Shown piece by piece: positions 8,117 through 61,984 of a stretch of DNA of 64,000 nucleotides. The notes beneath the pieces were generated by a model. It saw nothing but the letters and a program-made list of their open reading frames with translations, made no database searches and was not told the origin of the DNA. The DNA lies in assembly GCA_913009825.1 (NCBI GenBank), contig CAJVYQ010000008.1:14484-78483 (forward strand), read 5' to 3'. This stretch comes from an uncultured Deferribacteres bacterium. GTDB lineage: Bacteria; Zhuqueibacterota; JdFR-76; DREG01. The translations under genes and the position numbers were made by a program. Each line of letters starts with the position of its first letter. Within the stretch, counting starts at the first letter, position 1.

Positions 8117-8397
8117 AACTATTCAGGCATGCTCTATATATTACCTAAATTGAGCGATTGTAGGGCGATTCGCTGAATCGCCAACCGGATTTACATTAAA
8201 AATGAAAATCCGTTTAGCCATTTAAAACAAACTCAAAAACAAGAGAATCGCCAATTCAGGTATTAACTATAATAACACTTCGACTAAGTTTATCCTGAAC
8301 TTATCGAAAAAGAAGGCTCGGCATGGTTTTTCTGCCCGGTCTGAGCGAAGCCGAAAGCCTACTGTGCGTTAAATAACCGGCATACCTGAATAGGTAC
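8117..8397. repeat. Family-4 MITE-like element (TIR GTAACTAYTCAGG) interrupted by a nested family-1 MITE
   Basis: The left terminus caactattcaggcatgc (8117-8133) pairs with the right terminus gcatacctgaataggtac (8380-8397). The internal segment cttcgactaagtttatcctgaac matches the copy at 15420-15604. Confidence 0.7.
8143..8261 (-). repeat. Family-1 MITE copy A (119 bp) with 3-bp target-site duplication ATT
   Basis: Its termini are acctaaattgagcgattg and gaatcgccaattcaggt, and it contains the internal perfect hairpin ggcgattcgctgaatcgcc. The flanking trinucleotide att occurs at 8140-8142 and again at 8262-8264. Confidence 0.8.
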
Positions 8398-8731
8398 AAA
8401 AAGTTAGGAAAATGGATGGTTTAAATCAAGAATAATTTGGAGAAGCGAAATAGATTGATGGGTCACCGGAGCAGCGGAATACTGAATTGAACGAATGTAA
8501 CCTTTACATAATTGGAGCGATTTTTTCATTTACAAGGATGCAAATCATTAAGATTCCTGCTTTCGCAGGAATGACACTCATTATTCGCCCCGGCAGGGGT
8601 TGAACTCCTGCCCAAGCATAAGAATTTGTGGAAAAGCCGCATGTTAGCTGCTGTTTCTTAATTCCCTAAAAAATGGATAACCGTAACTTTAAAAACCATC
8701 CGGCCAGATCTCTTTTTCGAGCTAAAGCTCG

Positions 8732-8854
8732 ACCAACTGAATTACTGTTTTTGAGTTTGTTTTAAAGGTCTAACGTGTTTTCATTTTTTCAGGTAAATCC
8801 ATAGAAATCAGGTTGGCGATTCAGCGAATCGCCCTACAATCGCTCAATTTAGGT
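8732..8854 (+). repeat. Family-1 MITE copy B with a decayed left TIR
   Basis: The right half ggttggcgattcagcgaatcgccctacaatcgctcaatttaggt is intact, while the left TIR is reduced to accaactgaatt. It is inverted relative to copy A, so the pair forms roughly 100-bp inverted repeats around a 470-bp repeat-rich core. Confidence 0.7.
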
Positions 8855-19331: not shown

Positions 19332-20046
19332 CATAAAACTCCTATCTTGTCCATAATACACAATAAAATAAAGTTAAAATCTCCCATCGATAAACCGGTG
19401 GGTGACTGTAACAATTTTATTACCTCCTGAAGTAAGCGATTGCAGTCTCATTCGCCGAATCGACATACCGGCTAAGAAGCAGCGACTTACAAAACCTTCG
19501 GCTCATAAACCGAAGACAGGACTTGCGAAATACATTTGCCGGTTCTAATATCGCTGCCTTAAAACCAAACGAATCAACACAGAGATATGAATAACGCTAA
19601 ATTCAACGGTGTGATGAATCCCAAAGGAAAAATCAAACTATTTGACCCGAGATTTCTCCATTCTCTCTCCTCAATCCGGAATGACATCGATGAAAATTTT
19701 TGAAGGGAGAATAGTTACGGTTTTAGTCTTTTCGCAACATCCGCTATGTTGATGTAGCCCTGAAATAAATTTGGCAATTTCGGGTAAATTTCCCGGTGAG
19801 TAACAAATAGAATCATGCCTATAATTGACACCAAATGATTAGAATAAGTAATCAAAAACCTCTGGGAATATTTGCATTTCCTATGCGGTTTTGTTTTAGC
19901 TTTGCAGCCACGTGTGCATTTCTTCACCGGCCATTAACGGGATTGAACAAAAGTTAAGCACAAAACGAAACCCGGGAAAACCGGTATATTCCCTGCTAAT
20001 TTTTACAACCACATTTATATACAACAATTTCCAAGAAGTACCCGAT

Positions 20047-25630: not shown

Positions 25631-25705
25631 CTAAAATTTGTTTTATAATTTGATGAGGCGGTTCAATGTTCCGCCAGTCTTTTTAAATGGATACACGCAC
25701 ACCTT

Positions 25706-29568: not shown

Positions 29569-29885
29569 CTCAGCCCGCCTGATAGTGAACCATCAGGCTA
29601 AGAAAAGGCAGCGCTATAAATAGCGCTGCCGGGCAGGATGCTTTAGCATCCTTTTTACTCTCAGCCCCGTGGTTCTCCACGGGGCGCCATGGCATAGATT
29701 GAGTGCTTTCTTTTTAACCCGACTGAATCAGCTCAGCCCGCCTGATAGTGAACCATCAGGCTAAGAAAAGGAAGCGCTATAAATAGCGCTGCCGGGCAGG
29801 ATGCTTTAGCATCCTTTTTACTCTCAGCCCCGTGGTTCACCACGGGGCGCCATGGCTTAGCCAGGCAGCCCGCTCGAAAGTCGGG
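29569..29885. repeat. Tandem duplication of two roughly 163-bp units of a multi-hairpin element (family 5)
   Basis: Unit 1 is about 29569-29731 and unit 2 about 29732-29885, and they are about 97% identical. Each unit carries four hairpins: cctgatagtgaaccatcagg, cagcgctataaatagcgctg, ggatgctttagcatcc and ccccgtggttctccacgggg. A related single unit sits inside 39205-39363. Confidence 0.85.
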
Positions 29886-32454: not shown

Positions 32455-32537
32455 GATTACCTCCGCTTTCAGGTTTTTTGTGTGGATTTCAAAATATTAA
32501 GTTTAAACTGCTTAAAATTTGAAGTCACTAAAATTAG

Positions 32538-32693
32538 ACCTAAATTGAACGATTCTTAGCCTGAAACAACCACCCAAAGAGTTTTGTCATTCTGCCTGCC
32601 CGACGAACCGCAGGCGGGAAAGAATCTTGTTAGTTCTGTGCGCTAAACCAACAAGATTCCTACGGAATGACATTAGAATCGCTCAATTCAGGT
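32538..32693. repeat. Family-2 MITE (same 18-bp TIR as family 1, with a different core) flanked by TSD TAG
   Basis: The termini are acctaaattgaacgattc and gaatcgctcaattcaggt. The flanks read tag at 32535-32537 and tag at 32694-32696. The core contains gtcattctgcctgcccgacgaaccgcaggcgggaaagaatc and gtcattccgtaggaatc. Confidence 0.8.
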
Positions 32694-32737
32694 TAGAATA
32701 AAGTACCTCTCTGTTTCATTTTAGTTACTGTAAAATT

Positions 32738-35896: not shown

Positions 35897-35989
35897 AAGA
35901 ACCTCCGCTTAAATTTGAATTTAAAGATTGATGAATTATCAACAAAAACAACATTGTTTCACATATAACCGGTATTCACTTATTTAGAT

Positions 35990-36094
35990 CCTGAATTGAG
36001 CGATTCTAATGTCATTCCGTAGGAATCTTGTTAATTTATTGCTAATATTTAAAAAGATTCCTCCTGAATGACATGAGAATTGCTCAATTTAGGT
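35990..36094. repeat. Family-2 MITE copy (about 105 bp) abutting and providing the 3' end of the hepT remnant
   Basis: Its first 43 nt (cctgaattgagcgattctaatgtcattccgtaggaatcttgtt) are identical to the right end of the 32538-32693 copy. The right terminus gaatgacatgagaattgctcaatttaggt overlaps the hepT stop codon at 36089-36091. Confidence 0.75.
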
Positions 36095-39204: not shown

Positions 39205-39363
39205 GTAACTATTCAGGTGTTTTCTTTCAATCTTTTCACCTTGCCGTGAACGACAAGGCTAAGAAATGAAATGGCGCTAAAGCGTCCTATTTACGATAGC
39301 ATCCTTCAGGATGCTTTCATGTCTTAGCCTGAGGGTTCACTCTCAGGCGACCTGAATAGTTAC
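39205..39363. repeat. Family-4 TIR element (159 bp) carrying a family-5-type hairpin core
   Basis: The TIR gtaactattcaggtg (39205-39219) pairs with cgacctgaatagttac (39348-39363). The core (ggctaagaaatgaaatggcgctaaagcg...ggatgctttcat...cctgagggttcactctcagg) parallels the unit of the 29569-29885 tandem. Confidence 0.75.
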
Positions 39364-41314: not shown

Positions 41315-41785
41315 TCAATTCAACTCTGTGGCCAAAGCATAGCTTGATCCGGCATTAATCCAGCCAACAACCCTTTTTCTGATGCGATCAACTCTCCCCC
41401 CTACTAATTTCCACCGGTTCTCATTTTGATCGAATTTATAGATTCTGATTCGACTTTCATCGATGCCGTTTAAATTGGCATCCTTATAGGAGAGCCTTAC
41501 TTTAACCGGATCCGTTACTTCGGTCGAAAACTCAATTTTCCCCATCAGCAGGCCATGGGTTTTCCAGCAAAATCTTACATCCGTATTCTCGGCAACTGTG
41601 TCGGGAAGAATCACCACATCACTAATTCCACGGAACGGGTCTCCGACCCAAACATTTCCGCCCATTTGGGGCTTAATCTGCTTCACCCGGACAAACCGGG
41701 CGAAAGGTATATTATCATCGGTTTTCAGAATGTGGGGATTTTTCCTCTGTTTGCTGTACAAAACAAAACTTTTCATCATCATCAC
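41315..41785 (-). CDS. Hypothetical protein (156 aa)
   Basis: The ORF is complete, with an MMMMKSF start and no family I recognise. It is preceded by a long repeat-containing leader. Confidence 0.45.
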   Translation of the reverse strand: MMMMKSFVLYSKQRKNPHILKTDDNIPFARFVRVKQIKPQMGGNVWVGDPFRGISDVVILPDTVAENTDVRFCWKTHGLLMGKIEFSTEVTDPVKVRLSYKDANLNGIDESRIRIYKFDQNENRWKLVGGRVDRIRKRVVGWINAGSSYALATELN

Positions 41786-42184
41786 CTGTCCTCATCATTG
41801 TATAATCATCATTTCATTCACTGGTTATTCACTCACATAAAGTTCAAATTTTGTACCAAAGCCACTAACACATTAATTGATAATATGTTACAACATGTTT
41901 TATGTTGTTTAGGAAATGAAAAGGAAAAATAAATGGCTGAAATCAGCCAATTTTCGGCTCATTTCAGCCAATTGGTTCATCTCAGCCGTTTTTTAGAATA
42001 CGGGAGGAATGGGAATTTAACGAATAAAAACTTTTGCAACATTTTAGTCTTTTGATAAAATGTGCCTTTTTAATAGTTGATGAATTTTTACGATGTCATT
42101 CCGAATCCCCGCTCTTTTGGGTGAGGAATCTCATACCTTTCTATTTATGAGTCCACTCTAAAAAGACCCGGCAGGTTTAATCTC

Positions 42185-42303
42185 ACCTGAATTGAGCGAT
42201 TCTCTTGTTTTTGACCTTGTTTTTTTTACTAAACGGATTTTCATTTTTAATACAAATACGGCTGGCGATTCAGCGAATCGCCCTACAATCGCTCAATTCA
42301 GGT
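42185..42303 (+). repeat. Family-1 MITE copy C (119 bp) with TSD CTC, nested inside a second palindromic element
   Basis: The termini are acctgaattgagcgattc and gaatcgccctacaatcgctcaattcaggt (the last 18 nt are the TIR), with the internal hairpin ggcgattcagcgaatcgcc. The flanks read ctc at 42182-42184 and ctc at 42304-42306. The outer inverted repeats are ctctaaaaagacccggcaggttt (42158-42180) and aaacctgccgggtctaaaac...tttttagagt (42353-42396). Confidence 0.85.
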
Positions 42304-42498
42304 CTCAATTATATTTGGGGAAATTTAATATTTATCATCAACAACTTAGCTAAAACCTGCCGGGTCTAAAACGGGATAATTATGGTTTTTAGAGTCGTTT
42401 CATGGATATTTCAAAAAATTAAATTGACAAAAACAGATCGATAATTTACGGCGCACCGTAATGATGCGCCGCAAAGTATCTTTGGGAGCATGAGCAAT

Positions 42499-43731
42499 CT
42501 ATGATTCATTAACCTGCCTGTTTCTGATAAAGGCAGGAATATCATACACATCTTCCCCATCGCCTTTACTGCCTGAAGAATCGCTGAACTCTTTCTGTTC
42601 CTTGCGTTTGAAAGTGGGAATGTCCAATACACGCCGCCTGGAACCGATGATATCAAAGAAAGGATTCCGGGTTTCCAGAACATTACTGTTCGATTCGCCA
42701 TCCAAACCTGTGGCGATTACCGTAACCCGGATCTCTTCTTTGATGTTTTCGTCCAAAATAGCGCCGAAAATAATGTTGGCGTCACTGCCCACAGAATCGT
42801 ACACAACGGATGTGGCATTTTTCACATCATCCAGCGTAAGATCGTATCCGCCGGAAATGTTAATCAAAATACCTTTGGCGCCTTCGATGGAGATTTCTTC
42901 CAATAAAGGACTGGAGATCGCCATTTTGGCCGCCTCCATCGCCCGGTCCTGACCATCGGCAATGCCGGTGCCCATCAGCGCATTGCCCATTTCAGCCATA
43001 ATTGCTTTTATATCGGCAAAATCCAGATTGATCAAACCGGGAACGGTAATCAAATCCGAAATGCCCTGTGTGGCATGGAGCAGGATATCGTCGGCAATGC
43101 CAAATGCTTTCAGCAGCGGCGTCCCTTTGGGCACAATGGAAAACAGTCTTTGATTGGGAATGGTAATCAGCGTGTCCACTTTTTCACGAAGCAACTGAAT
43201 TCCTTCCAAAGCACGTTTGGTGCGCTTCATTCCTTCAAACTGAAACGGTTTGGTAACAATGGCCACGGTCAAAGCGCCCTCGCTTTTAGCAATTTCCGCT
43301 ATGATGGGAGCCGCACCTGTGCCGGTACCTCCTCCCATGCCTGCCGTGATGAACACCATATCCGTGTCCGACAGGGCTCTTTTCACTACTTCGCGGTCTT
43401 CTTCAATCGCTTCTTTGCCGATTTCAGGATCAGCGCCGGCGCCGAGTCCTTTGGTTAATTTTTTGCCGATTTGAATTTTTTGTTTCGCCTTGTTTACATT
43501 AAGCGCCTGTTGATCCGTGTTGATCACAATGAAATCAACACCCTGGAGACCGGCTTCAATCATCCGGTTAAGTGCATTGCCTCCGGCGCCGCCAATGCCT
43601 ACTACTTTCATTCTGGCATTGGATTCGCCCTCTTTGTCAAGTTCAATTGTCAGGGACATAGCCCCCTCCTTCCTGTTTGGTTCAAAGATAAGATTATTTT
43701 CTTCTTCCCAGTCAAATTGTAATTGATCCAT
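42499..43731 (-). CDS. ftsZ: Cell division protein FtsZ
   Basis: It has the tubulin signature GGGTGTG and the N-terminal region [15 protein letters not shown]. Confidence 0.95.
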
Positions 43732-43740
43732 GATTCACCT

Positions 43741-45126
43741 CTAAAAATTTTTACTCCAGGAATAAAATTTAGTCCCGATCGATTTCATCCAGTTCATAAT
43801 GGAATCGAACATGTGTGCTTCGTCCGTTTCTTCTTCACTGAAATCATTTTCTTTTTCATTAATTCCATACTGAATCAGCCCAATCCCGGTAGCATGAATG
43901 GGTGATCCGGCCAATCCGACCAGTCCACCGAAACCATGGGGCACACCCATTTTAACCGGCATATCAAAAATCTGTTCGCCTAACTCAATAATTCCTTCCA
44001 ACATGGAGCCGCCGCCGGTTAGAACAAACCCGGCGCTGAGGAAATCAGCATAATCGGAACGGTACACTTCCCGTTTTGCCAGCGTCAAAATTTCTTCGAT
44101 TCTCGGCCGGATTATTTCGGTGAGAAAAGATTTTGGCACCAGCGAAGAAGGCCTGCCGCCCACACCGGGTACTTCAATCATTTCAGTTTGATCCTCTCTC
44201 CGCCCCAGTGTGCAACCGTATTTCAGTTTTATTTTTTCCGCCTGGTCCAGGGGCGTCCGTAATCCCTGGGCAATGTCATTGGTAACATTCCTGCCGCCCA
44301 AACCGATCACCGCCGTGTGCCGGATACTGCCTTCGTAAAAAAGTGCAATATCGGTGGTGCCGCCGCCAAGATCGATCAGCCCAACGCCAATCTCCTTTTC
44401 GTCATCCCCTAAAACGGAATAACTGGAAGCCAACGGTTCCAGCACCAGATTTTTTACTTTCAAACCGGCGCGTTGAACACAACGGTAAATATTTTGTGCG
44501 GAAGTAACGGCGCCGGTAACAATGTGCACTTCGGCTTCCAGGCGTACTCCCGAAAATCCGATAGGCGTCTTAATGCTGCCCTGATCATCCACGATGTATT
44601 CCTGGGGAATAACATGAATAATTTCCCGGTCAATGGGCAGCGAAACAGCTTTTGCCGCTTCGGTCACCCGCCGGATATCGTCCGCTTTAATTTCATGATC
44701 CGGCCCGGAAACAGCCACCACACCGCGGCTGTTGATGCTGCGGATGTGATCGCCGGCGATACCCACATAAACCGAATCAACCTCGACACCGGCCATCAAT
44801 TCCACCTCTTTCACTGCCCGGGTAATGGATTGCACGGTTTTTTCAAGATTGACGACAACACCGCGGCGCAAACCGTCGGACGGCGCCATACCGACACCGA
44901 TCACATTCAGCATTTCGTGCTCATCTACCTCGGCAATGATAACGGCAATTTTATTCGTACCGATATCCAAACCGCTGTAAATCCGGTTTACAGCATACTG
45001 TTTTCTTCCCGTTTTCTCCGGCGCCGGCACCGGTTTTGGTTCCACAAGCGGTTTCCGTTTATGGTTGTTCCTCTCCAAAACGGTAAACAGGTCCGGCGTA
45101 TCACCAAAATATGCTCTTTTGCTCAT
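43741..45126 (-). CDS. ftsA: Cell division protein FtsA
   Basis: The 461-aa product has an actin-like ATPase fold (LDIGTNKIAVIIAEV ... DLGGGTTDIALF). Confidence 0.92.
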   Translation of the reverse strand: MSKRAYFGDTPDLFTVLERNNHKRKPLVEPKPVPAPEKTGRKQYAVNRIYSGLDIGTNKIAVIIAEVDEHEMLNVIGVGMAPSDGLRRGVVVNLEKTVQSITRAVKEVELMAGVEVDSVYVGIAGDHIRSINSRGVVAVSGPDHEIKADDIRRVTEAAKAVSLPIDREIIHVIPQEYIVDDQGSIKTPIGFSGVRLEAEVHIVTGAVTSAQNIYRCVQRAGLKVKNLVLEPLASSYSVLGDDEKEIGVGLIDLGGGTTDIALFYEGSIRHTAVIGLGGRNVTNDIAQGLRTPLDQAEKIKLKYGCTLGRREDQTEMIEVPGVGGRPSSLVPKSFLTEIIRPRIEEILTLAKREVYRSDYADFLSAGFVLTGGGSMLEGIIELGEQIFDMPVKMGVPHGFGGLVGLAGSPIHATGIGLIQYGINEKENDFSEEETDEAHMFDSIMNWMKSIGTKFYSWSKNF

Positions 45127-45201
45127 AAGCTCCCTCTCTCTAAAACTTTCTGGAGTTTTGTCTATCTTGGATTCGAAATAACGATGACAATTTTTTTTCG
45201 T

Positions 45202-45942
45202 TTAAAACTTTGCCACCACTTGTTCGCGAAATCGTAAATCAACATATTTTAAAGAACCGTATCTTTTTTCTTCTTTCACGCGCGCAAAAAATGCCTGCAA
45301 TTTCCGGGCTTTTTCATAAAAACCGCCAAAACCGAAATAGGCCGGAAAACGGGCATCATTAAAATTAACCAAAAATCCCTTCCGGTTATCGTAATGAACT
45401 TCAGACAAATTTTGGTACAGGCCGGAATCGACACTTCGGATCAGATTAAACAGGTTAATCGCCTGGATAACCCGATCCGATTCCACCATTGCCCCGGGAT
45501 TTTCCCGAAAATTATCGATGCCGGTGATGATAGGCAAACCATGCAACGCAACCGATTTCAACCTGGGCAGCAGGAAACCGGTTTCATCCACAGCAAACAG
45601 ATGTGTACCGTTCAAAAAAGCGACCGGTACCCTTTCCACAATGTCGATGCGCAAAGTCGATGGAAAACGCCGGGAAATCAATGCCGTTTCAATGTAAGGA
45701 TGAACCTCGATTGCCTTTTGAATATCCAACAGATCAATGCCGGTGATATTTTGTCCCTTCCTGACCGGAGCGAGTTTCAAAATTTCATCCGTGGTCACCA
45801 GACGATTTCCTTCCACATCCACATCGCTTAATCGCAGCGTGGTGCTGTGGTTCATCCATTCCACCAGCTTATTGCCGAGAAGAAACAACCCCGCGGCGAT
45901 TGTTAGAATAACTATACTTTTTGTGATTTTCTTCACAAGCAT
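45202..45942 (-). CDS. ftsQ: Cell division protein FtsQ/DivIB (POTRA)
   Basis: It has an N-terminal TM helix followed by the POTRA segment (LRLSDVDVEGNRLVTTDEI). Confidence 0.8.
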   Translation of the reverse strand: MLVKKITKSIVILTIAAGLFLLGNKLVEWMNHSTTLRLSDVDVEGNRLVTTDEILKLAPVRKGQNITGIDLLDIQKAIEVHPYIETALISRRFPSTLRIDIVERVPVAFLNGTHLFAVDETGFLLPRLKSVALHGLPIITGIDNFRENPGAMVESDRVIQAINLFNLIRSVDSGLYQNLSEVHYDNRKGFLVNFNDARFPAYFGFGGFYEKARKLQAFFARVKEEKRYGSLKYVDLRFREQVVAKF

Positions 45943-45962
45943 TTTGATCTTTCTTTGCCTTG

Positions 45963-46082
45963 ACCTAAATTGAGCGATTTTCTTGTTTTTAAGCTTAATG
46001 CTGAAACCAAAAAGGTTTTCATTTCTAATAGTAATCTCTGCTGGCGATTCAGCGAATCGCCTTACAATCGCTCAATTTAGGT
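45963..46082 (+). repeat. Family-1 MITE copy D (120 bp) with TSD TTG
   Basis: The termini are acctaaattgagcgatt and aatcgctcaatttaggt, with the internal hairpin ggcgattcagcgaatcgcc. The flanks read ttg at 45960-45962 and ttg at 46083-46085. Confidence 0.85.
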
Positions 46083-46255
46083 TTGAATAAACTTTTTATA
46101 AATACCACTACCAAAAGTAGTGGTTTTTTGAATTAATAAACTGCCGCGACATCTACTGCACTATACAGCAAAAATGTCCGGTTTATAATTTTCTCTGCCT
46201 GCCAATCAACTTTACAAGCCCGGCATCACTACTTTTGATCCGTTACTAAACTTCT

Positions 46256-47362
46256 TCAATCAACCAGGATAAGCTTACATAAATCAGAAACAATATCATG
46301 AGCTGCATTTGGTTTCGCCATGCCTTTCATTTTTTTCTTCATTTGTGCTAATCGGCTATCATCATCTATCAGAGCCTTAATTGTTGTCAGTAAAATATCA
46401 CCGGTGGTTTCGCTTTCCGGCAAATATTTGGCTGCTCCCGTTTTTTCCAATTCCATTGCGTTGTACTTTTGGTGATCGCCCGTCGCAAACGGAAAGGGGA
46501 TCAATATAGCGGGAATCCCCAAATAGGTTAATTCCGCAATGGTAGTCGCCCCGGCACGACACAAAGTCAGATCACAAGCAGTATAAGCAGTGTACATGTC
46601 TTCGATGAAAGCAAAAAGATGCAACCCTTCCAAATCACCCGATTCCCGGGCGATTTTATCAAAATGATTCGGCCCGGTCGCCCAGACAATTTGAATACGG
46701 TCATCTGCAAGTAATTGGCGTGTAATGCCAAGAAGAAGCTTGTTAAGACCCAAACCACCCTGACTGCCGCCGAAGACAAGCAAGGTTTTTTTATCTGCTG
46801 CCAACCCAAATTTTTTTGCTGCCGATTCCCGGTCCAAATCAACTTTCATCTGACGTACCGGATTGCCGAAAACTTCTATTTTCCCCTGATTTTTGAAATA
46901 TTGCCGGGACGAATCATAAGTTAAATACACCCGTTTTGCCACACGGGACAACAACCGGGTTGTCACACCGGGGTAGCTGTTCTGTTCCTGAACCGCGGTG
47001 CTGATTCCGGCCACCCGGGCGGCAAAAACCACCGGGGCGCTCACATAGCCGCCGGTGCCGATGACCAGATTGGAACGATTAAACAGAAAATGGAAAATGA
47101 GAAAGAGCAGGCTGCCCGGCAGTTCAACGGGAATCAAAAAATTTGACAGAGCAAAAGATCGACGAAAACCCCGGATTTTAATGGTGCTCAACTGAAATCC
47201 CAACTGGTGCCGCAGACGGTATTCAACGCCTCTCTTTGTGCCCCAGAAACGGATTTCGCAGGACGGGAATCTTCGTTTAAACTCCTGCGCTAAAGACAGC
47301 GCCGGGAAAAGGTGTCCGGCTGTGCCGCCGCCGGCAAAATCAATCCGTTTCAATTCCTGCAA
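46256..47362 (-). CDS. murG: UDP-N-acetylglucosamine--N-acetylmuramyl-(pentapeptide) pyrophosphoryl-undecaprenol N-acetylglucosamine transferase
   Basis: It has the GGTAGHLFPAL N-terminal motif and a C-terminal donor-binding domain. Confidence 0.92.
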   Translation of the reverse strand: MQELKRIDFAGGGTAGHLFPALSLAQEFKRRFPSCEIRFWGTKRGVEYRLRHQLGFQLSTIKIRGFRRSFALSNFLIPVELPGSLLFLIFHFLFNRSNLVIGTGGYVSAPVVFAARVAGISTAVQEQNSYPGVTTRLLSRVAKRVYLTYDSSRQYFKNQGKIEVFGNPVRQMKVDLDRESAAKKFGLAADKKTLLVFGGSQGGLGLNKLLLGITRQLLADDRIQIVWATGPNHFDKIARESGDLEGLHLFAFIEDMYTAYTACDLTLCRAGATTIAELTYLGIPAILIPFPFATGDHQKYNAMELEKTGAAKYLPESETTGDILLTTIKALIDDDSRLAQMKKKMKGMAKPNAAHDIVSDLCKLILVD

Positions 47363-47401
47363 AACTCTTACTCCCTCAAATGGGCCACTGATGCACCCTG
47401 T

Positions 47402-48538
47402 CTATCGCCGTTCCGATCTTCTTCTTTTTTTTCCTGCCAACCGGAATTCGTTGTGTTGGGAAATATTCAGCAAGATACCGATTCCGGCCAGAGAAGAGAT
47501 CATGAATGATCCGCCGTAACTGATCAACGGCATGGGCAGCCCTTTTGTCGGAAACAGGTTGCAAACCACGCCGGCATTTAAAAAAGCATACAGCGCCAGG
47601 CTTGTTGTAATTCCGGTAGCTAAAATGGCACCGCCCTCATCCCGGCATTTGTAGGCGATCCGGTATCCTTCCATCACAATAAGAAGAAAAAGGGTTAACA
47701 AAATCAGGGCGCCCAAAAAGCCAAATTCCTCGCCTACGATAGCAAAGATAAAATCCGTGAACGGTTCAGGTAAAAATTCCAGTTTCTGTGTGCTGTTGTC
47801 CAATCCCTGCCCTATTAAACCGCCGTTGCCCAAACTGATCAACGATTGCTGCACCTGGTAGCTCAACGGCAGATCATGAAAAATGGAATCGAAATAGTTT
47901 TTTATACGGATCCACTGATATTGCTTCAAAAAAAATGGCGCCGCAACCACTCCAAGCGTAAGGATGGTGCCGATGTGAAGAAACGGCACTCCAGCCGTCA
48001 AAAAAATCACCGTACCGATGGTGAACAAGATAACCACCGAACCCATGTCCGGTTGTTTCAACAGCAGCACAGAAACGAGGCCAAGAACAATAAATTGCGG
48101 CAGGATTCCCACTTTCCAGTCATCCAGATACTCTTGTTTGCGCACCATGGCGTCGGTGAGGTAAAAAATGATCGCCAGGCGGACAAAATCCACCGGCTGA
48201 AATTGAAAACCGTAAATTTTGATCCACCGTGTGGCCGTACCGTGCGATTCACCAAAAATCAGCACCGCTGCCAAAAGCCCAATGCCAAGCAGGAGCCAAA
48301 ATTTAGCCGTGCTGAGCCACATTTTGTAGGGGATCAAAGCGGTAATTGCCATAACAATCAATCCGGCAAGGACACGGTAAAAGTGTTTGCGAAAGAACAA
48401 AGAACCGTCTTCGTATTTTTTCAGCGCCACATGATGGCTGGCGCTGTAAACCATAACCAGCCCGATGCAAAGCAGCAAGATGACAATGCCGAACAGGAAA
48501 TAGTTGTAGCGATTTTCTTCAAAATTCCGTTTTATCAT
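47402..48538 (-). CDS. ftsW: SEDS-family peptidoglycan glycosyltransferase FtsW
   Basis: The 378-aa polytopic membrane protein belongs to the FtsW/RodA/SpoVE family and sits in the dcw cluster between mraY and murG. Confidence 0.88.
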   Translation of the reverse strand: MIKRNFEENRYNYFLFGIVILLLCIGLVMVYSASHHVALKKYEDGSLFFRKHFYRVLAGLIVMAITALIPYKMWLSTAKFWLLLGIGLLAAVLIFGESHGTATRWIKIYGFQFQPVDFVRLAIIFYLTDAMVRKQEYLDDWKVGILPQFIVLGLVSVLLLKQPDMGSVVILFTIGTVIFLTAGVPFLHIGTILTLGVVAAPFFLKQYQWIRIKNYFDSIFHDLPLSYQVQQSLISLGNGGLIGQGLDNSTQKLEFLPEPFTDFIFAIVGEEFGFLGALILLTLFLLIVMEGYRIAYKCRDEGGAILATGITTSLALYAFLNAGVVCNLFPTKGLPMPLISYGGSFMISSLAGIGILLNISQHNEFRLAGKKRRRSERR

Positions 48539-49623
48539 CGTATTTTAAACAGACTCAGGCTAAATAATAACAACAGGATTCCGACAATCCAGAAGCGGAC
48601 AACAATTTTTTGCTCCGGAATTCCCTTCAATTCGTAATGGTGGTGCAACGGAGCCATGAGGAAAATTCTTTTCCCTCCCCGGTAGCGGAACGAAAGCACC
48701 TGCAAAATCACCGAAAGAGATTCCACAACAAAAACACCGCCGATGACCAACAGCATCAACTCTTTCTTGGTTAAAATTGCCAGGGTTCCTAAAGCACCGC
48801 CCAAGGTTAAACTGCCCACATCACCCATAAAAATTTCCGCCGGCGAAGAGTTGAACCAAAGGAAACCGATAGCAGCACCCAACATAGCTGCACAATAAAC
48901 GGTTAATTCCCCTGCATCTTTGAGATACATCACATTGAGATACTCACTAAAGTCCACACGTCCGCTGATATAACTGATAAAGGCCCAGGCCAGCGCGGAG
49001 ATGCCAACCAGTCCAACCGCCAGGCCATCCAAACCATCGGTCAAATTTACCGAGTTGGATGTAGCCGTGACCACCAAAATAGCCACCGGAATGATAAAAA
49101 TGCCCAAATCGATGACATAATTCTTAAAGAAGGGGATGAACGTTTGCGAATGGATCCCCTCGTAAACAGGAGAAAACCAGACCACCAAACCGATGAAAAG
49201 TCCCAGCGAAATCTGGCCGGCCAATTTATATCTGCCAATCAACCCTTTCGGATATTTTTTTATCACCTTCAGGTAGTCATCCACAAAACCGATGAAAGCC
49301 ATAAAAACGGTTGCTGCTAAAATGACCCAGGTGAATATGGTATCCAGTCTGGCAAAGAGAACCGTGGGCACAACAATGGCAGTAAGAATGATGATGCCGC
49401 CGAATGTTGGTGTGCCGGATTTTTTCTTGTGGCTCTCCGGTCCGTCGGCATCAATCTCTTCACCGATCTGTTTGTGGCGCATGTAACGGATCACAATCGG
49501 CCCGATGTAAAAACTGATGAACAGCGCTAAAATCGCTGCCGCTGCGGACCGGAATGTAATATAGCGAAATACATTAAAACCAAAAAAGTGATCCCGCAGC
49601 GGATATAGCAGATGATATAACAT
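48535..49623 (-). CDS. mraY: Phospho-N-acetylmuramoyl-pentapeptide transferase
   Basis: MraY motifs are present and the protein is polytopic, with a 4-nt overlap with ftsW. Confidence 0.93.
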   Translation of the reverse strand: MLYHLLYPLRDHFFGFNVFRYITFRSAAAAILALFISFYIGPIVIRYMRHKQIGEEIDADGPESHKKKSGTPTFGGIIILTAIVVPTVLFARLDTIFTWVILAATVFMAFIGFVDDYLKVIKKYPKGLIGRYKLAGQISLGLFIGLVVWFSPVYEGIHSQTFIPFFKNYVIDLGIFIIPVAILVVTATSNSVNLTDGLDGLAVGLVGISALAWAFISYISGRVDFSEYLNVMYLKDAGELTVYCAAMLGAAIGFLWFNSSPAEIFMGDVGSLTLGGALGTLAILTKKELMLLVIGGVFVVESLSVILQVLSFRYRGGKRIFLMAPLHHHYELKGIPEQKIVVRFWIVGILLLLFSLSLFKIR

Positions 49624-49646
49624 GCTTTTTCCTCAGATCAGCAAAA

Positions 49647-51038
49647 TTATTGACGAGTCACGGTTTGCAGTTCCTGCCAAATGGTCTCCATTGCCATTCC
49701 TCTCGAACCTTTAATCAACACTACATCTCCGTTTTGCAGCAATGTTTGCAGATCCCCGGCCAACGTGGATTTATCGGAATAGACGCGAACCTGTTTTCCG
49801 CCGGCCCGGGTAAACCCTCGTTCGAACGCTGCGGCAAAATCCCCGTACAACAGCAGCAGGGTCACACCCGCTTCCGCCGCCTCTTGGCCGGCTTTTTCAT
49901 GGGCCGCTTCACTGACTTCCCCCAATTCCAGCATATCTCCCAAAACAGCAACAGCCCGGCCTTGCCGGGTGCGAATCAGATGAGAGAGCGTTGCCAGCGC
50001 CGCCCGCAAAGAATCCGGGTTGGAATTATAGGCATCTAATAGAATAGCAGCGCCATGCCATTCATGTTTTTCCATTCGTTTGGAAAAACTGCGGTGATTT
50101 TCCAATGCCGTTGCAATATCGTTTAGCGGAATGTGCCAATAAATACCAACTGCTGCCGCTGCCAACGCATTGCTGATTTGATGTTCCCCCGGCACCTGCA
50201 ATTGGACTTCCACCTGATTTTGCAGGCGAAAACCGGCGCAGCCTTCCGGATTCAAACTTAAAAATTCGCCGCGCACTTCCGCATCATGATGCAGGCTGTA
50301 GCGAATCTGTTGCCGCACTATCTTTGCCGCAGCCATAATCCGGGAATCATCCGCATTAACAAAAGCCAGCCCATCTTCAGGCAGGCTTTTAAATAACTCG
50401 GCCTTTGCTCCGGCCACATCATCAACCGAACCGAAAAACTCCAGATGGCCGGCGCCGATATTGGTGATTAGCCCATGATCCGGACGGGCAATTTCGCATA
50501 AACGCTCGATCTCTCCGAAATGATTTGTCCCCATCTCAATCACTGCAATTTCAGTGTCGTCCTCTATCTGCAGCAATGATAACGGCAAGCCGATATGATT
50601 GTTCAAATTCCCCGGCGTTTTGACGATTTTGTATTTTTGTGCCAAAACTGAGGCAATCATCTCTTTTGTGGTGGTTTTACCGTTCGTGCCGGTTATTGCC
50701 AGTACGGGAACGGCAAACATGGCACGGTAATTTCCGGCAAGCTGCTGCAATGAGAACAGCGGATCATCAACGCCAATGATCGAACCCTGTCGACCGGATA
50801 AAAATTCGCCCTGCCTGTCTTTCCGCACCACACAAGCTAATGCGCCCTTTGCCATTGCCTGCGGGATAAATGTATGTCCGTCGAACAGTTCGCCGCGCAA
50901 AGCAAAATAAACCGCTCCGGCTTTCAGAGTCCGGGTATCGATGGAAATCGAACCGACAATTTTATCCCGAAACGGAGCGCCGGGGTTTATTTTTTCGCCA
51001 GTCAGGCGGATAAATTTTTTTAATGGCAACGATTTCAC
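49647..51038 (-). CDS. murF: UDP-N-acetylmuramoyl-tripeptide--D-alanyl-D-alanine ligase
   Basis: It has the MurF-specific motif block LAITGTNGKTTTKEM ... GNLNNHIGLPLSLL ... IEMGTNHFGEIE ... GAGHLEFFGS, which is colinear with E. coli MurF. This distinguishes it from MurE. Confidence 0.9.
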   Translation of the reverse strand: MKSLPLKKFIRLTGEKINPGAPFRDKIVGSISIDTRTLKAGAVYFALRGELFDGHTFIPQAMAKGALACVVRKDRQGEFLSGRQGSIIGVDDPLFSLQQLAGNYRAMFAVPVLAITGTNGKTTTKEMIASVLAQKYKIVKTPGNLNNHIGLPLSLLQIEDDTEIAVIEMGTNHFGEIERLCEIARPDHGLITNIGAGHLEFFGSVDDVAGAKAELFKSLPEDGLAFVNADDSRIMAAAKIVRQQIRYSLHHDAEVRGEFLSLNPEGCAGFRLQNQVEVQLQVPGEHQISNALAAAAVGIYWHIPLNDIATALENHRSFSKRMEKHEWHGAAILLDAYNSNPDSLRAALATLSHLIRTRQGRAVAVLGDMLELGEVSEAAHEKAGQEAAEAGVTLLLLYGDFAAAFERGFTRAGGKQVRVYSDKSTLAGDLQTLLQNGDVVLIKGSRGMAMETIWQELQTVTRQ

Positions 51039-51044
51039 AATTTT

Positions 51045-53123
51045 TTATCCCGACATGGGCTGACAAACTATTTTACATTTAAAATCCTTCGCCCGGCTGT
51101 TGGCTTTCGGCTGCTGCTTTATCACATACCCGCTGCCGGACAAAACCGGATCGTACCCGGCCTGGGTTAAAATTTGAATCGCATCGCGAATACTTTTTCC
51201 CACCACGTTGGGTACTTTTTCCCGTCTGGTGTTTTTGGCAATTTCCCCGCTCAGGTTGAGCATGATCACTTCATCCGAATCCAGCAAATTTCCCGGCTTC
51301 GGATTTTGAGAAACCACATACCCGCCGCTACCTTCCGAGCGAACCTGAAAAGCAAGATTGGTCAATATTTCCTTTGCCTGATAGTAATTTAACTCCGTTA
51401 CGTCCGGCACCCGTATTTTCCGGTGATTTTTTACATAAGATGGCCGAGTCTGTCGCGGTTCGACCCCTGTATCTAAAACCCGGCGGATAATATTACGGAA
51501 AATGGGAGCCGCCGATTGAGAGCCGTATTTATAGCGGCTCTGCGGTTCATCTACCATTACCAGACACACCAATTTGGGTTTGTTCACCGGAGTAAACCCA
51601 ACAAAAGAAGCAATGTATTTTCGCTTTGAATACCGTTTTAAAACAGAATCGTATTTCTTGGTTGTGCCGGTTTTTCCCGCGATGGCAACTCCTTCAATCC
51701 CGGCAGGTTTTCCGGTTCCCGATTCTACAACAGCTTGCAGAATATTTTTCAATTGGTGCACCGTCTTCGGATAAAGTACACGCCGGATAGTGTCTGGCCT
51801 GGTTTTAGAAAGGGTATTTTTGTAAACATCCGAAAAGACGTCATGCAAAATCCGGGGTTTTAACAGATAACCGCCATTGGCCACAACAGCATACGCATTG
51901 GCTAACTGTAAACCTGTCACCAAAACACCGTAACCGATAGGAAAACGCGCCAGATCACTTTTGCTCCATTTCATATAATTGGTAAATTTTCCTCTGTCCT
52001 CTCCTAACAGATCAATACCACTGGGCATACCGAAACCAAAAGCACGGCCATAATTGTAGATTCTTTGCTTCCCGATTTTAATGGCCATTTTTGCTACACC
52101 GATATTGCTGGAATGAACAAAGACCCCTTTTACCGTCAATGTTCCGTACGGTTTATGATCCGTGATATAACCACCGGAAAACATTTTTTTTCCGTTCTCG
52201 CAAAATATTTTGTCCGTCGGTTTAAAAATCCCTTCCTGCAAAGCCGCCGCAGCCGTTACCAGTTTGAAAGTGGAACCGGGTTCGTACGGATCAACCAGCG
52301 CCCGGTTGCGTCTCTCCGCTCTACTATAGCTACTGTAATTATTGGGATTGAAAGACGGGTAAGAAACCATAGCCAACACTTCCGCAGTGGAGGGGTCTAA
52401 CATCACTACCATACCGCTTTTGGCGCCATATTTTTCAATCCCCTTGCGCAATTCTTCTTCTGCGATCAACTGATAGTCGATATTCAGGGTTAAAACAAGA
52501 CTTTTGCCACTAACAGGCGCTTTTTCCGGTTCACCGATGGTTGGCACTAATTTTCGTCGCGCATCGATAAAAACCTTTTTGAACCCTTGCTTTCCTTCCA
52601 GCAGATGGTTGTATTTTTTTTCGATCCCTGCCAGACCGGCATTGTCGATATTTGTGAAACCGAGAATATGTGCGGCCGCCCTGTCGTAGGGATAAAATCG
52701 TCCCGTTTCTTTTATTTTCGCTACCGGATTTCCTTTAGCGAACTGAATTTTTTTGCTGGTTTGCAGATCCACACCGCGGGCCAGCCAGACAAACCGTTTC
52801 TTTTTCAGCAGGTTCAAATAGTAAGAAATATTGTTACCGGTAACACGGGCAAACTGCCGGGCGATTTTCCGCTTTTCCACCAACTGTGTAGGATTGACGC
52901 CGAAGGAAAACCGGGCGATATCAAAAGCGAGTTGGTTAAAATTGCGATCGTAAATCCCTCCCCGTTCCGAATACAACTTCACAATGGTTTGTGATTGGTG
53001 ATGGGCGATCACTCCATTCGCTTCACCGTTAATAATCTGAATAAAAAACAGACGTACGAGCAAACCCAAATAGAAAATGATGGCGATTGCCGCCCAGAGA
53101 TTTTGCGTCCAGCGACGATACAT
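51045..53123 (-). CDS. ftsI: Division-specific class B penicillin-binding protein (FtsI-like) with two C-terminal PASTA domains
   Basis: It has an N-terminal TM helix, a dimerisation domain, the transpeptidase motif SxxK (YEPGSTFKLV), and two PASTA repeats in the last roughly 130 aa (VPDVTELNYYQAKEIL... and VPNVVGKSIRDAIQIL...). Confidence 0.9.
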   Translation of the reverse strand: MYRRWTQNLWAAIAIIFYLGLLVRLFFIQIINGEANGVIAHHQSQTIVKLYSERGGIYDRNFNQLAFDIARFSFGVNPTQLVEKRKIARQFARVTGNNISYYLNLLKKKRFVWLARGVDLQTSKKIQFAKGNPVAKIKETGRFYPYDRAAAHILGFTNIDNAGLAGIEKKYNHLLEGKQGFKKVFIDARRKLVPTIGEPEKAPVSGKSLVLTLNIDYQLIAEEELRKGIEKYGAKSGMVVMLDPSTAEVLAMVSYPSFNPNNYSSYSRAERRNRALVDPYEPGSTFKLVTAAAALQEGIFKPTDKIFCENGKKMFSGGYITDHKPYGTLTVKGVFVHSSNIGVAKMAIKIGKQRIYNYGRAFGFGMPSGIDLLGEDRGKFTNYMKWSKSDLARFPIGYGVLVTGLQLANAYAVVANGGYLLKPRILHDVFSDVYKNTLSKTRPDTIRRVLYPKTVHQLKNILQAVVESGTGKPAGIEGVAIAGKTGTTKKYDSVLKRYSKRKYIASFVGFTPVNKPKLVCLVMVDEPQSRYKYGSQSAAPIFRNIIRRVLDTGVEPRQTRPSYVKNHRKIRVPDVTELNYYQAKEILTNLAFQVRSEGSGGYVVSQNPKPGNLLDSDEVIMLNLSGEIAKNTRREKVPNVVGKSIRDAIQILTQAGYDPVLSGSGYVIKQQPKANSRAKDFKCKIVCQPMSG

Positions 53124-53127
53124 CGAA

Positions 53128-53544
53128 CTATTCTCCCAGAGAATGAATCAACGTATTCGGATTCTGATAAGCTAAATTGTCCAACTGAAGCAAGTCGGTC
53201 AGCATCTCAACAGACGAAACGGTGGAATCATCGTCGTAATAAACTACATTCGCCTTCCGGTTACGATCGATCATGTGCAAACGTGTTTCGGCAATTTTTC
53301 GGATTCGGTCGTTGGCCGATAATTCAAACATTTTTGCCTGTAGCAATTTGTTTTCTTCCACAAGTTCATCCACCCGGGTTTGCATGTTGGCAATACCGAA
53401 CAACATTTCCTTGATGTAGTTACGTTGAATCAAATGCGCCAGAGCAAACAGAGTTATAAAAACAACGATCAAAATAAAATTGCGGGAGAAAAACGGTTGA
53501 TTAACTACTGCAACCGGCCTTTTTGGTCTCACATATCTACTCAT
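53128..53544 (-). CDS. ftsL: Cell division protein FtsL-like
   Basis: The 138-aa product has a single TM helix (FILIVVFITLFALAHLI) followed by a coiled-coil segment, and sits between rsmH and ftsI. Confidence 0.7.
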   Translation of the reverse strand: MSRYVRPKRPVAVVNQPFFSRNFILIVVFITLFALAHLIQRNYIKEMLFGIANMQTRVDELVEENKLLQAKMFELSANDRIRKIAETRLHMIDRNRKANVVYYDDDSTVSSVEMLTDLLQLDNLAYQNPNTLIHSLGE

Positions 53545-53719
53545 ACAAATACCTGATATTTTAGTGGTTCGATTTAAATATTCAGGTAAAATACAACAAA
53601 GTTGAAAGTTTTTTACACCCCTTGCAACCCTCTTGAGGGGGTACGGGGAGTGTTCCTCTATCTACCTGAACGGTTTCAGTTTATTCAAACATGAACTCAA
53701 CATAAACCGGCATACAAAG

Positions 53720-61926: not shown

Positions 61927-61984
61927 CTACAGAAATGAGACATCACAAAAAAAAATCATTTCTGCGGCATCTCATTTCTGCGGC
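61927..61984. repeat. Family-6 palindromic element, second copy
   Basis: cagaaatgagacatc ... an A9 loop ... tcatttctgcggcatctcatttctgcggc shares the GCCGCAGAAATGA core with 25566-25630. Confidence 0.7.

What the first reader, a model, noticed from the sequence alone, without database searches (positions are those of the whole stretch)
42185..42303. Previously unannotated MITE family with an 18-bp TIR, an internal perfect hairpin and 3-bp target-site duplications
Four copies lie in 64 kb: 8143-8261, 8732-8854, 42185-42303 and 45963-46082. They share the termini ACCTRAATTGAGCGATT / AATCGCTCAATTYAGGT and the internal palindrome GGCGATTCagcGAATCGCC. Three copies have unambiguous 3-bp direct duplications of flanking DNA (ATT, CTC, TTG). 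The family-2 elements carry the same TIR, and one has TSD TAG. That is direct sequence evidence of transposition rather than a conserved regulatory site. No cognate transposase is present in the window.
Basis: seen in the sequence. Interest (0 to 1): 0.7.

Follow-up and report, generated by a model that had tools for sequence, protein, structure and literature searches.

The report
IS1380-family miniature transposon (MITE) copies
The repeats are real miniature transposons that borrow the ends of an IS1380-family insertion sequence common in sediment bacteria; they are an ordinary kind of mobile DNA, and the claimed 3-bp duplication is the core of a 5-bp T-N-N-N-A duplication.

Summary
Four about 119-bp copies, one decayed relic and two family-2 copies share the terminus ACCTRAATTGAGCGATT: 12 hits against 0.49 expected. 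The MITE reading is right, but the anatomy was misparsed.

The same terminus bounds 1.73-kb insertion sequences in other genomes. These encode a 461-aa IS1380-family DDE transposase (NCBIfam NF033539, 194.6 bits, cutoff 180). Ten such copies in one metagenome are identical over the 1,736 bp between the outermost bases. They differ only at the outermost base, which tracks the flank.

So the true ends are CCT...AGG, the TIR is 16 bp, and the duplication is 5 bp with a strong TNNNA preference. Of 82 paired elements, 47 have a perfect 5-bp repeat, against 0-2 at control offsets. This matches IS1380/ISEcp1: CC ends, 5-bp TSD, and outer eight bases CCTAAATT identical to the ISEcp1 right end.

Unrelated interiors behind the same TIR form lineage-specific MITE families in Desulfobacterota, anammox Planctomycetota, Bacteroidota, Nitrospirota and Chlorobiota. 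The family-1 palindrome is two inverted copies of the inner TIR motif GCGATTC. It is as conserved as the TIR, so it is probably an extra transposase-binding site (inferred).

No transposase lies in the window. Verdict: a new member of a known kind, of modest interest.

The parts
42186..42302 (+). Family-1 MITE copy 3, the flagged copy. It has two intact 16-bp TIRs (CCTGAATTGAGCGATT). The 5-bp TSD TCTCA lies at 42181-42185 and 42303-42307. The copy sits about 195 bp downstream of the ftsZ stop.
   Evidence: ftsZ identified
42264..42282 (.). Subterminal perfect palindrome GGCGATTC-agc-GAATCGCC: two inverted copies of the inner TIR motif GCGATTC, 4 nt from the right TIR. The same feature lies at 8164-8182, 8815-8833 and 46043-46061.
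45964..46081 (+). Family-1 copy 4, with two intact TIRs. The flanks are CTTGA (45959-45963) and TTTGA (46082-46086), a 4/5 match. It lies in the murG-ftsQ spacer of the dcw cluster, 20 bp upstream of the ftsQ ATG.
8144..8260 (-). Family-1 copy 1, inverted. One TIR has a 1-nt deletion (CCTGAATTG-GCGATT). The 5-bp TSD TATTA lies at 8139-8143 and 8261-8265. The copy sits just upstream of mutS.
8732..8853 (+). Family-1 copy 2. The right 40 nt are intact, but the left TIR is destroyed by an indel (ACCAACTGAATTACTG), so no TSD can be read. It is presumably immobile.
19425..19470 (+). Decayed family-1 end: a TIR with 3 mismatches followed by a degraded palindrome (TCTCATTCGCCGAATCGAC, 13 of 19 by my count).
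32539..32692 (+). Family-2 MITE. It has the same TIR and an unrelated interior with its own inverted repeat. The 5-bp TSD TTAGA lies at 32534-32538 and 32693-32697.
35990..36093 (+). Shorter family-2 copy, with one mismatch in the right TIR. The flanks TAGAT / TATCA are not a TSD.
8497..8590 (+). Decayed MITE debris: a TIR-like stretch ACATAATTGGAGCGATT, and a family-2-like stretch aagattcctgctttcgcaggaatgaca.

Best explanation
[quoted passage not shown] They use the terminal inverted repeat of one clade of IS1380-family insertion sequences.

**Anatomy**
- The element proper runs CCT...AGG and has a 16-bp TIR, CCTRAATTGAGCGATT.
- It has no coding capacity.
- A 461-aa IS1380-family DDE transposase, supplied in trans by a full-length 1.73-kb IS with the identical TIR, binds the two ends.
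- The transposase inserts the element at AT-rich 5-bp TNNNA targets and duplicates those 5 bp.
- The target usually starts with T and ends with A. The duplication therefore looks like one extra TIR base plus a 3-bp repeat.

**The palindrome**
- Family 1 carries a subterminal palindrome made of two inverted copies of the inner TIR motif GCGATTC.
- It is conserved as strictly as the TIR while the interior drifts.
- It is therefore most likely a cis element selected during propagation, such as an extra transposase-binding site.

**Shown and inferred**
- Shown: the repeat structure, the TSDs, the shared TIR with a transposase-bearing IS, the 5-bp parse and the IS1380 membership of the partner.
- Inferred: trans-mobilisation in this genome, the role of the palindrome, and any effect on neighbouring genes such as ftsQ.
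For: **The repeat is real.** TIR and palindrome counts are far above chance.

**The same TIR bounds autonomous ISs.**
- L069:1163-2892 is 1,730 bp and encodes a 461-aa ORF. The ORF scores 194.6 bits on NF033539 'IS1380 family transposase' (cutoff 180) and hits Pfam DDE_Tnp_1_4.
- Ten 1,738-bp copies (L126-L135) and the L136-L140 copies carry the exact TIR at both ends.

**The outermost base is target-derived.**
- The ten copies are identical over the 1,736 bp between the outermost bases. They differ only at base 1 or base 1738, in 3 of 10 copies.
- All ten have perfect flanking repeats once the ends are set at CCT/AGG: eight of 5 bp, one of 6 bp and one of 7 bp.

**The 5-bp TSD holds across paired elements.**
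- 47 of 82 have a perfect 5-bp TSD, against 0-2 at nine control offsets.
- Position 1 is T in 44 of 47 and position 5 is A in 42 of 47.
- When the 'terminal' base deviates from A/T, the far flank matches it in 9 of 12 cases.

**It resembles ISEcp1.**
- ISEcp1 in pC15-1a ends CCTAGATTCTACGT / CCTAAATTCCACGT. Its outer 8 bases are identical to this TIR.
- ISEcp1 makes a 5-bp TSD, TATGA (PMC2887853). IS1247, also IS1380 family, has DR 5 (PMC3281130).

**It propagates as a small element.**
- MITEs with this TIR but unrelated interiors cluster by host lineage.
- They match the full ISs only over the terminal 30-44 bp.

**The palindrome is constrained.** By my sum of the pairwise counts, the right-end 40 nt match at 234 of 240 positions and the interior at 270 of 412. 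The relic at 19425 has a decayed palindrome.

**It is not a conserved site.** A related species (FtsQ 63% identical) has a 127-bp murG-ftsQ spacer with no TIR.
Against: - No transposase is in the 64-kb window. I could not scan the rest of the genome, so current mobility here is unproven.
- No precise empty site was recovered. All other assemblies of this organism are 99.96-100% identical and carry the same insertions.
- Copy 4 has a 4/5 TSD, which fits the 3-bp parse as well. Family-2 copy B has no TSD.
- Family 1 itself was not found outside this organism: 0 hits in JGI metagenomes and none among the 118 fetched genome loci.
- The palindrome never varies, so there is no covariation evidence for or against a folded form.
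- About 140 chance matches to the 17-mer are expected in the whole genome collection (my estimate). Only the 59 of 118 loci with an inverted partner count as evidence.
Confidence: 0.9

Rival explanations
1. One reading: a MITE whose ends are ACCT...AGGT (17-18-bp TIR) and which duplicates 3 bp of target. This would imply a partner from a 3-bp-TSD group (IS3, some IS5 subgroups, or PIF/Harbinger-like elements).
For: - With ACCT/AGGT ends, 43 of 63 short elements have a perfect 3-bp flank repeat.
- Window copy 4 (CTTGA/TTTGA) and L023 fit this parse slightly better than the 5-bp one.
Against: - Ten otherwise identical IS copies differ only at this outermost base.
- When that base deviates, it matches the distal flank base in 9 of 12 cases, although that position is T or A in about 87% of insertions.
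- The base before the left trinucleotide and the base after the right one are T and A in 46 of 53 cases, as a 5-bp duplication requires.
- The partner transposase is IS1380 family, whose known members have CC ends and 5-bp TSDs.
Confidence: 0.05
2. The copies are host-maintained structured repeats, REP/BIME-like or Correia-like. Their conserved hairpin and TIR stem would serve the cell (mRNA stabilisation or processing, protein binding), and transposition would be incidental or extinct.
For: - Each copy would fold into a 17-bp terminal stem plus an 8-bp hairpin if transcribed (-38 to -43.6 kcal/mol, z from -5.5 to -7.0).
- Copy 4 lies inside the dcw cluster, 20 bp from the ftsQ start.
- All copies are intergenic.
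- Copy 2 keeps a perfect right 40 nt despite a broken left TIR.
Against: - A stable fold is automatic for any TIR element.
- No promoter-like or terminator-like site falls inside the two copies scanned, copies 3 and 4.
- The relic at 19425 shows the palindrome decaying.
- The element is absent at the orthologous spacer in a relative.
- The conserved parts are exactly those shared with, or derived from, the transposase-recognised TIR.
Confidence: 0.1
3. The copies are remnants of full-length IS1380 elements, each reduced in place by internal deletion. They would not be a small element that transposes as such.
For: A decayed, shortened IS exists elsewhere: L065:1729-3174 is 1,446 bp with a truncated ORF.
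Against: - The four copies share the same about 60-nt interior (54-81% identical) and the same palindrome.
- That interior matches no part of the full ISs; similarity stops at the terminal 30-44 bp.
- Independent deletions would not give the same junction four times.
Confidence: 0.02

Closest known systems
IS1380 family insertion sequences (ISEcp1, IS1247, ISPme1)
   Same: - The partner IS encodes a single DDE transposase that passes the NCBIfam IS1380 model.
- It is about 1.7 kb, has 5'-CC ends and a TIR of about 16 bp, and makes a 5-bp AT-rich TSD.
- The outer 8 bases, CCTAAATT, are identical to the ISEcp1 right end.
- The ISEcp1 TSD TATGA also fits TNNNA.
   Different: - The window elements are 104-154 bp and non-coding.
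- The partner transposase is only 21% identical to ISEcp1 and belongs to an environmental clade. That clade had a single 40%-identical hit among 72,556 plasmids.
- No outward promoter or one-ended gene capture, both typical of ISEcp1/ISPme1, was seen.
Bacterial MITEs in general (e.g. MaeMITEs of Microcystis, Correia elements of Neisseria, ERIC)
   Same: Short, non-coding and multicopy, with TIRs and TSDs. They lie in intergenic DNA and can fold into a long hairpin if transcribed. Their TIR is shared with an autonomous IS.
   Different: - In the searchable literature I found no MITE attributed to IS1380.
- From my own knowledge: Correia elements have 26-bp TIRs, a TA duplication and no known transposase.
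- Here the partner is identified, and the same TIR heads many unrelated, lineage-specific MITE families.
piggyBac and its MITE derivatives (eukaryotic relatives of IS1380)
   Same: - IS1380 transposases are used as the prokaryotic outgroup of piggyBac (PMC10813416).
- The piggyBac side rests partly on my own knowledge and partly on an abstract: it has CC-starting ends (CCC...GGG) and a short target with T and A at its outer positions, and it integrates at TTAA (PMC7351741 abstract). Here the ends are CCT...AGG and the target is TNNNA.
- piggyBac ends also carry subterminal repeats bound by the transposase (PMC5861402, listed; content recalled, not read here).
   Different: - The TSD is 5 bp with a free middle rather than a fixed TTAA.
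- The host is bacterial.
- Hairpin intermediates and seamless excision are untested for this clade.

Membership tests
MITE (non-autonomous TIR element) | Short (below about 600 bp) and without coding capacity | tested here: met
   Copies are 104-154 bp and lie between the ORFs of at least 100 aa.
MITE (non-autonomous TIR element) | Terminal inverted repeats | tested here: met
   The 16-bp TIR CCTRAATTGAGCGATT is at both ends of copies 3 and 4 and of family-2 copy A. There are 12 hits against 0.49 expected.
MITE (non-autonomous TIR element) | Target-site duplication flanking the copies | tested here: met
   TATTA, TCTCA and TTAGA are perfect, and CTTGA/TTTGA matches 4/5. Across loci, 47 of 82 are perfect, against 0-2 at control offsets.
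MITE (non-autonomous TIR element) | Multiple dispersed copies sharing an interior | tested here: met
   The 64-kb window holds four family-1 copies plus one relic and two family-2 copies. Genome-wide copy number was not measurable.
MITE (non-autonomous TIR element) | An autonomous element with the same TIR that encodes the transposase | tested here: met
   L069, L126-L135 and L136-L140 are 1.73-kb ISs with the exact TIR and a 461-aa transposase. All are from other genomes. Presence in the source genome was not testable; there is none in the window.
MITE (non-autonomous TIR element) | Insertion polymorphism (occupied versus empty sites) | tested here: inconclusive
   Other assemblies of the same organism are 99.96-100% identical and carry the same copies. 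A relative with 63% FtsQ identity lacks any TIR in its murG-ftsQ spacer, but the spacers do not align, so there is no exact empty site.
IS1380 family (partner IS and, by its ends, the MITE) | DDE transposase matching the family model above its curated cutoff | tested here: met
   NF033539 scores 194.6 bits against a cutoff of 180, covering 417 of 419 profile positions. PF13701 DDE_Tnp_1_4 scores 86.4 bits. NCBI names cluster members 'IS1380 family transposase'.
IS1380 family (partner IS and, by its ends, the MITE) | Ends beginning 5'-CC with a TIR of about 14-16 bp (ISfinder family description, recalled from memory; ISEcp1 ends read here) | tested here: met
   After the target-derived outer base is removed, the ends are CCT...AGG. 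ISEcp1 in pC15-1a reads CCTAGATTCTACGT / CCTAAATTCCACGT.
IS1380 family (partner IS and, by its ends, the MITE) | 4-5-bp target duplication | tested here: met
   The TSD is 5 bp in 47 of 82 elements and in 8 of 10 identical IS copies, with one of 6 bp and one of 7 bp. Literature: IS1247 has DR 5 and ISEcp1 has a 5-bp TSD.
Transposons with 3-bp TSD (IS3, some IS5 subgroups, PIF/Harbinger-like) | 3-bp duplication with element-encoded terminal bases | tested here: not met
   The supposed terminal base varies between otherwise identical IS copies and co-varies with the distal flank. The partner transposase is not of these families.
Any curated RNA family (Rfam 15) | Covariance-model match at the gathering score | tested here: not met
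   There are no matches in the whole window.

The most novel reading that the evidence does not exclude
One IS1380 subclade keeps a nearly invariant 16-bp TIR even between transposases only 40% identical. It has repeatedly spawned unrelated, lineage-specific MITE families in at least five bacterial phyla of anoxic sediments.

Family 1 in this genome would have gone a step further by acquiring a palindrome of two extra transposase half-sites (GCGATTC). This would act as an additional transposase-binding module, analogous to the subterminal repeats of piggyBac ends, and would give the MITE an edge in competing for transposase.

The TNNNA / CC-end geometry would also then hint at a piggyBac-like hairpin mechanism and seamless excision in bacteria.
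Probability: 0.25. Interest if true: 0.5.

Novelty: new member of a known kind. Interest (0 to 1): 0.35.

Why it matters
- **Annotation.** The element has an identified family, an identified partner transposase and a corrected anatomy (16-bp TIR, 5-bp TNNNA duplication). This allows clean annotation here and in many MAGs. In about 30 of the 118 fetched loci the TIR lies within about 150 bp of a contig or locus end and points outward, which suggests these repeats break assemblies.
- **Method.** A palindromic target preference can masquerade as an extra TIR base plus a shorter TSD. Identical IS copies that differ only at the outermost base are the test that separates the two.
- **IS1380 biology.** I found no MITE attributed to this family in the searchable literature. 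The conserved TIR across deeply diverged transposases gives a system for studying end recognition in the prokaryotic relatives of piggyBac.
- **Host.** One copy lies 20 bp upstream of ftsQ inside the division-gene cluster. Its effect on expression is testable.

Tried and rejected
- **Rfam.** The gathering scan of the whole window gave no family.
- **Family-1 pattern in JGI metagenomes.** Palindrome + spacer + TIR gave 0 hits, so there is no outside census of family 1.
- **TIR in IMG/VR viral contigs.** There were 16 hits, none with an inverted partner. This is consistent with chance and gives no evidence of phage carriage.
- **Genome-collection hits.** I estimate about 140 chance 17-mer matches in 596 Gb. 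I therefore used only loci with an inverted partner or an adjacent transposase. The single archaeal hit (L039) is unpaired and was not counted.
- **Promoter and terminator scan.** The scan covered copies 3 and 4 and found no site inside either element.
- **Empty sites.** Exact-protein look-ups returned only the same strain, plus relatives too diverged to align.
- **Origin by deletion.** BLAST of MITE interiors against five full-length ISs gave similarity only in the terminal 30-44 bp, so these are not simple deletion derivatives.
- **GCGATT motif in other MITE families.** Extra subterminal copies are absent. The palindrome is specific to family 1, apart from one tandem duplication in L046.
- **Literature.** Searches for IS1380 + MITE and for the TIR string returned only IS/MITE inventories without linkage, or unrelated primers.
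- **First look-up.** The ftsZ ORF as listed was not on record, probably because of its start codon.
- **MAFFT alignment.** The four-way alignment understated interior identity, so I recomputed it pairwise.

Full report

Reading the four stated intervals with their flanks shows the claimed features. Each copy begins ACCTRAATTGAGCGATT and ends AATCGCTCAATTYAGGT. Each also carries the perfect palindrome GGCGATTC-agc-GAATCGCC four bases inside one end.
- The 17-mer has 12 matches at up to 3 mismatches, against 0.49 expected from shuffles.
- The palindrome is exact in all four copies, against 0.05 expected.
- Copy 1 (8143-8261) is inverted and has a 1-nt deletion in one TIR.
- Copy 2 (8732-8854) has a left TIR broken by an indel.
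- A fifth, decayed end lies at 19425-19470.
- Two 'family-2' elements (32538-32693 and 35989-36094) share the TIR but have an unrelated interior.
- The trinucleotides ATT, CTC, TTG and TAG are repeated on both sides, as stated.
- The shared terminus is 17 nt, not 18.

**2. Where is it?**

Exact-protein look-ups place the window in a Bacteroidota MAG: GCA_011040895.1, which NCBI names 'Bacteroidetes bacterium'. Two metagenome assemblies are 99.96-100% identical to it. The window is 45% G+C.

All copies are intergenic between housekeeping genes.
- Copies 1 and 2 lie in the 800-bp mutS-lipoate ligase spacer.
- Copy 3 lies about 195 bp downstream of ftsZ.
- Copy 4 lies in the murG-ftsQ spacer of the dcw cluster, 20 bp upstream of the ftsQ ATG.
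- The family-2 copies lie upstream of a 2-oxoacid:ferredoxin oxidoreductase subunit gene and of sucC.

**3. What carries the same ends elsewhere?**

I estimate that about 140 chance matches are expected in the full 596 Gb, so single hits mean little. However, 59 of the 118 loci have an inverted partner within 2 kb. About 30 more abut a contig or locus end with the element pointing outward.

The paired elements are mostly 84-311 bp. They come from Desulfobacterota, Nitrospirota, anammox Planctomycetota, Bacteroidota and Chlorobiota. Clustering their interiors gives families that follow host lineage:
- a 15-member, roughly 161-bp family in Desulfobacterota;
- a 5-member family in anammox bacteria;
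- a 5-member family in Bacteroidota.

The window's two families match none of them.

tblastn then showed a transposase next to the TIR in five loci. L069:1163-2892 is a complete 1,730-bp IS with a 461-aa ORF. That ORF scores 194.6 bits on NCBIfam NF033539 'IS1380 family transposase' (cutoff 180) and 86.4 bits on Pfam DDE_Tnp_1_4.

A protein search found 1,545 relatives, the top 120 at 69% identity or more. Most sit on about 1.7-2-kb contigs, as expected for a repeat that breaks assemblies. NCBI already names members 'IS1380 family transposase'.

Fetching the contigs of two of these proteins gave ten 1,738-bp copies from one metagenome and several of a second IS. All are bounded by the exact TIR.

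**4. The anatomy was misparsed.**

The ten copies from one assembly are identical over the 1,736 bp between the outermost bases. The only differences are at base 1 or base 1738, in three of the ten copies. In those copies the variant base equals the base on the far side of the flanking repeat: AAATA|CCT...AGG|AAATA and TATTT|CCT...AGG|TATTT.

Setting the ends at CCT...AGG gives these results:
- All ten copies have perfect flanking repeats: eight of 5 bp, one of 6 bp and one of 7 bp.
- 47 of 82 paired elements overall have a perfect 5-bp repeat, against 0-2 at nine control offsets.
- The pentamer is T at position 1 in 44 of 47 and A at position 5 in 42 of 47, with an AT-rich middle.
- Among 53 elements whose inner three bases match, the 'terminal' base deviates from A/T in 12. 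In 9 of those 12 the distal flank carries the same deviation. That position is otherwise T or A in 46 of 53.

The outer A and T are therefore target-derived. The TIR is 16 bp, and the duplication is 5 bp with a TNNNA preference.

In the window the duplications read TATTA (copy 1), TCTCA (copy 3), TTAGA (family-2 A) and CTTGA/TTTGA (copy 4, one mismatch).

**5. Comparison with the known family.**

CC ends, a 14-16-bp TIR and a 4-5-bp duplication form the ISfinder description of IS1380. I recalled that description from memory and then checked it in three ways.
- IS1247 (IS1380 family) is listed with IR 16/13 and DR 5 (PMC3281130).
- ISEcp1 makes a 5-bp duplication, TATGA, which also fits TNNNA (PMC2887853).
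- ISEcp1 in plasmid pC15-1a ends CCTAGATTCTACGT and, in reverse complement, CCTAAATTCCACGT.

The outer eight bases of the ISEcp1 right end are identical to this TIR, although the transposases are only 21% identical.

Within the clade the TIR is even more stable. Loci L001 and L099 have transposases about 40% identical to the L065 query, yet carry the exact 17-mer. A 40%-identical copy on a Solidesulfovibrio plasmid has 14 of 16.

IS1380 transposases are the prokaryotic outgroup of piggyBac (PMC10813416). From my own knowledge, piggyBac also has CC-starting ends. It integrates at a T...A target, TTAA (abstract listed).

**6. How it most likely works.**

*Shown.* The window copies are small, non-coding and TIR-bounded. 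They are flanked by target duplications and share their ends with an active-looking IS, of which ten identical copies exist in one genome.

*Inferred.* They are, or were, moved in trans by such a transposase.

They are not in-place deletion remnants. The four copies share one interior, and that interior matches no part of the full ISs. MITE-to-IS similarity stops 30-44 bp from the ends.

Conservation is very uneven. Summing the pairwise counts, the right-end 40 nt (palindrome, spacer and TIR) match at 234 of 240 positions and the interior at 270 of 412. Decay after insertion would be even along the element. The contrast therefore points to selection during propagation on the palindrome as well as on the TIR.

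The palindrome is two inverted copies of the inner TIR motif GCGATTC. It is specific to family 1, and it decays in the dead relic at 19425. My reading is that it is an extra transposase-binding site. This is inference only.

If transcribed, each copy would fold into a 17-bp stem plus the 8-bp hairpin, but that is automatic for a TIR element. No promoter-like or terminator-like site falls inside copies 3 and 4.

**7. Tests that failed or were inconclusive.**
- No transposase lies in the window, and the rest of the genome could not be scanned.
- No empty site was found. Other assemblies are the same strain.
- The closest relative (FtsQ 63% identical) has a 127-bp murG-ftsQ spacer with no TIR. 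It is too diverged to align. This still argues against a conserved orthologous regulatory site.
- Family 1 was not found in JGI metagenomes.
- Viral contigs gave only unpaired hits at chance level.
- Rfam has nothing.
- The searchable literature does not link any MITE to IS1380 or contain the TIR string.

**8. Verdict.**

This is a genuine MITE, correctly recognised as mobile DNA. Its partner is now identified (IS1380 family) and its geometry corrected (16-bp TIR, 5-bp TNNNA duplication). It is a new member of a known kind.

The modest points of interest are:
- the recurrent birth of unrelated MITE families behind one deeply conserved TIR in several phyla;
- the half-site palindrome;
- the copy lodged just upstream of ftsQ.

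Interest 0.35.

Noticed in passing
window 29569-29697 and 29732-29860 (tandem pair), and 39236-39352: A roughly 115-130-nt element built of four GC-rich hairpins. The tandem pair is 98% identical. The third copy keeps the same layout with 13-15 base pairs maintained by double changes.

The loops of hairpins 1 and 4 (GTGAAC / GTTCAC) are complementary. So are the GGCTAAGA / TCTTAGCC segments flanking the two inner hairpins.

There is no Rfam match. A metagenome scan with GTGAACNANNAGGCTAAGAAA found 16 loci. Three of them (L166, L169, L171) carry the whole layout with further compensatory changes. This is a candidate unnamed structured RNA or palindromic repeat.
   Followed up: partly
window 8117-8919: The 800-bp spacer between mutS and the lipoate-ligase-like gene is a graveyard of insertions. 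It holds two family-1 copies, a TIR-like fragment at 8497-8522 and a family-2-like fragment at 8545-8590.
   Followed up: partly
window 45943-46255 and 42499-54907: The division/cell-wall cluster reads mraW-ftsL-ftsI-murE-mraY-ftsW-murG-[MITE]-ftsQ-ftsA-ftsZ, with no murF, murD, murC or murB in it. A relative (L144) has murB between murG and ftsQ. A bidirectional terminator-like hairpin (46104-46124) sits between murG and the MITE.
   Followed up: no
window 25605-25636 and 61958-61989: A 32-nt direct repeat, 94% identical (ATTTCTGCGGCATYTCATTTCTGYGGCTAAAA), occurs at two sites 36 kb apart. It contains an internal ATTTCTGYGGC duplication.
   Followed up: no
L126-L135 (JGI 3300076001 contigs): The ten identical IS1380 copies sit among toxin-antitoxin genes (ParE, PemK, HEPN/NTase, PIN), group II intron reverse transcriptases and other ISs. 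One copy interrupts a type I restriction hsdR-like gene (L134). Two copies lie head-to-head about 600 bp apart (L129/L130).
   Followed up: no
L050, L068, L086: One 216-268-bp MITE family with this TIR occurs both in Scalindua (Planctomycetota) MAGs and in a Thermodesulfovibrionia (Nitrospirota) MAG. This is either cross-phylum transfer of a MITE or a binning error.
   Followed up: no
window 41315-41785: A 156-aa ORF with no Pfam match lies between ftsZ/copy 3 and rpmB. In the relative L143, ftsZ is followed directly by rpmB. The ORF and the MITE are therefore both extra DNA in this spacer.
   Followed up: no
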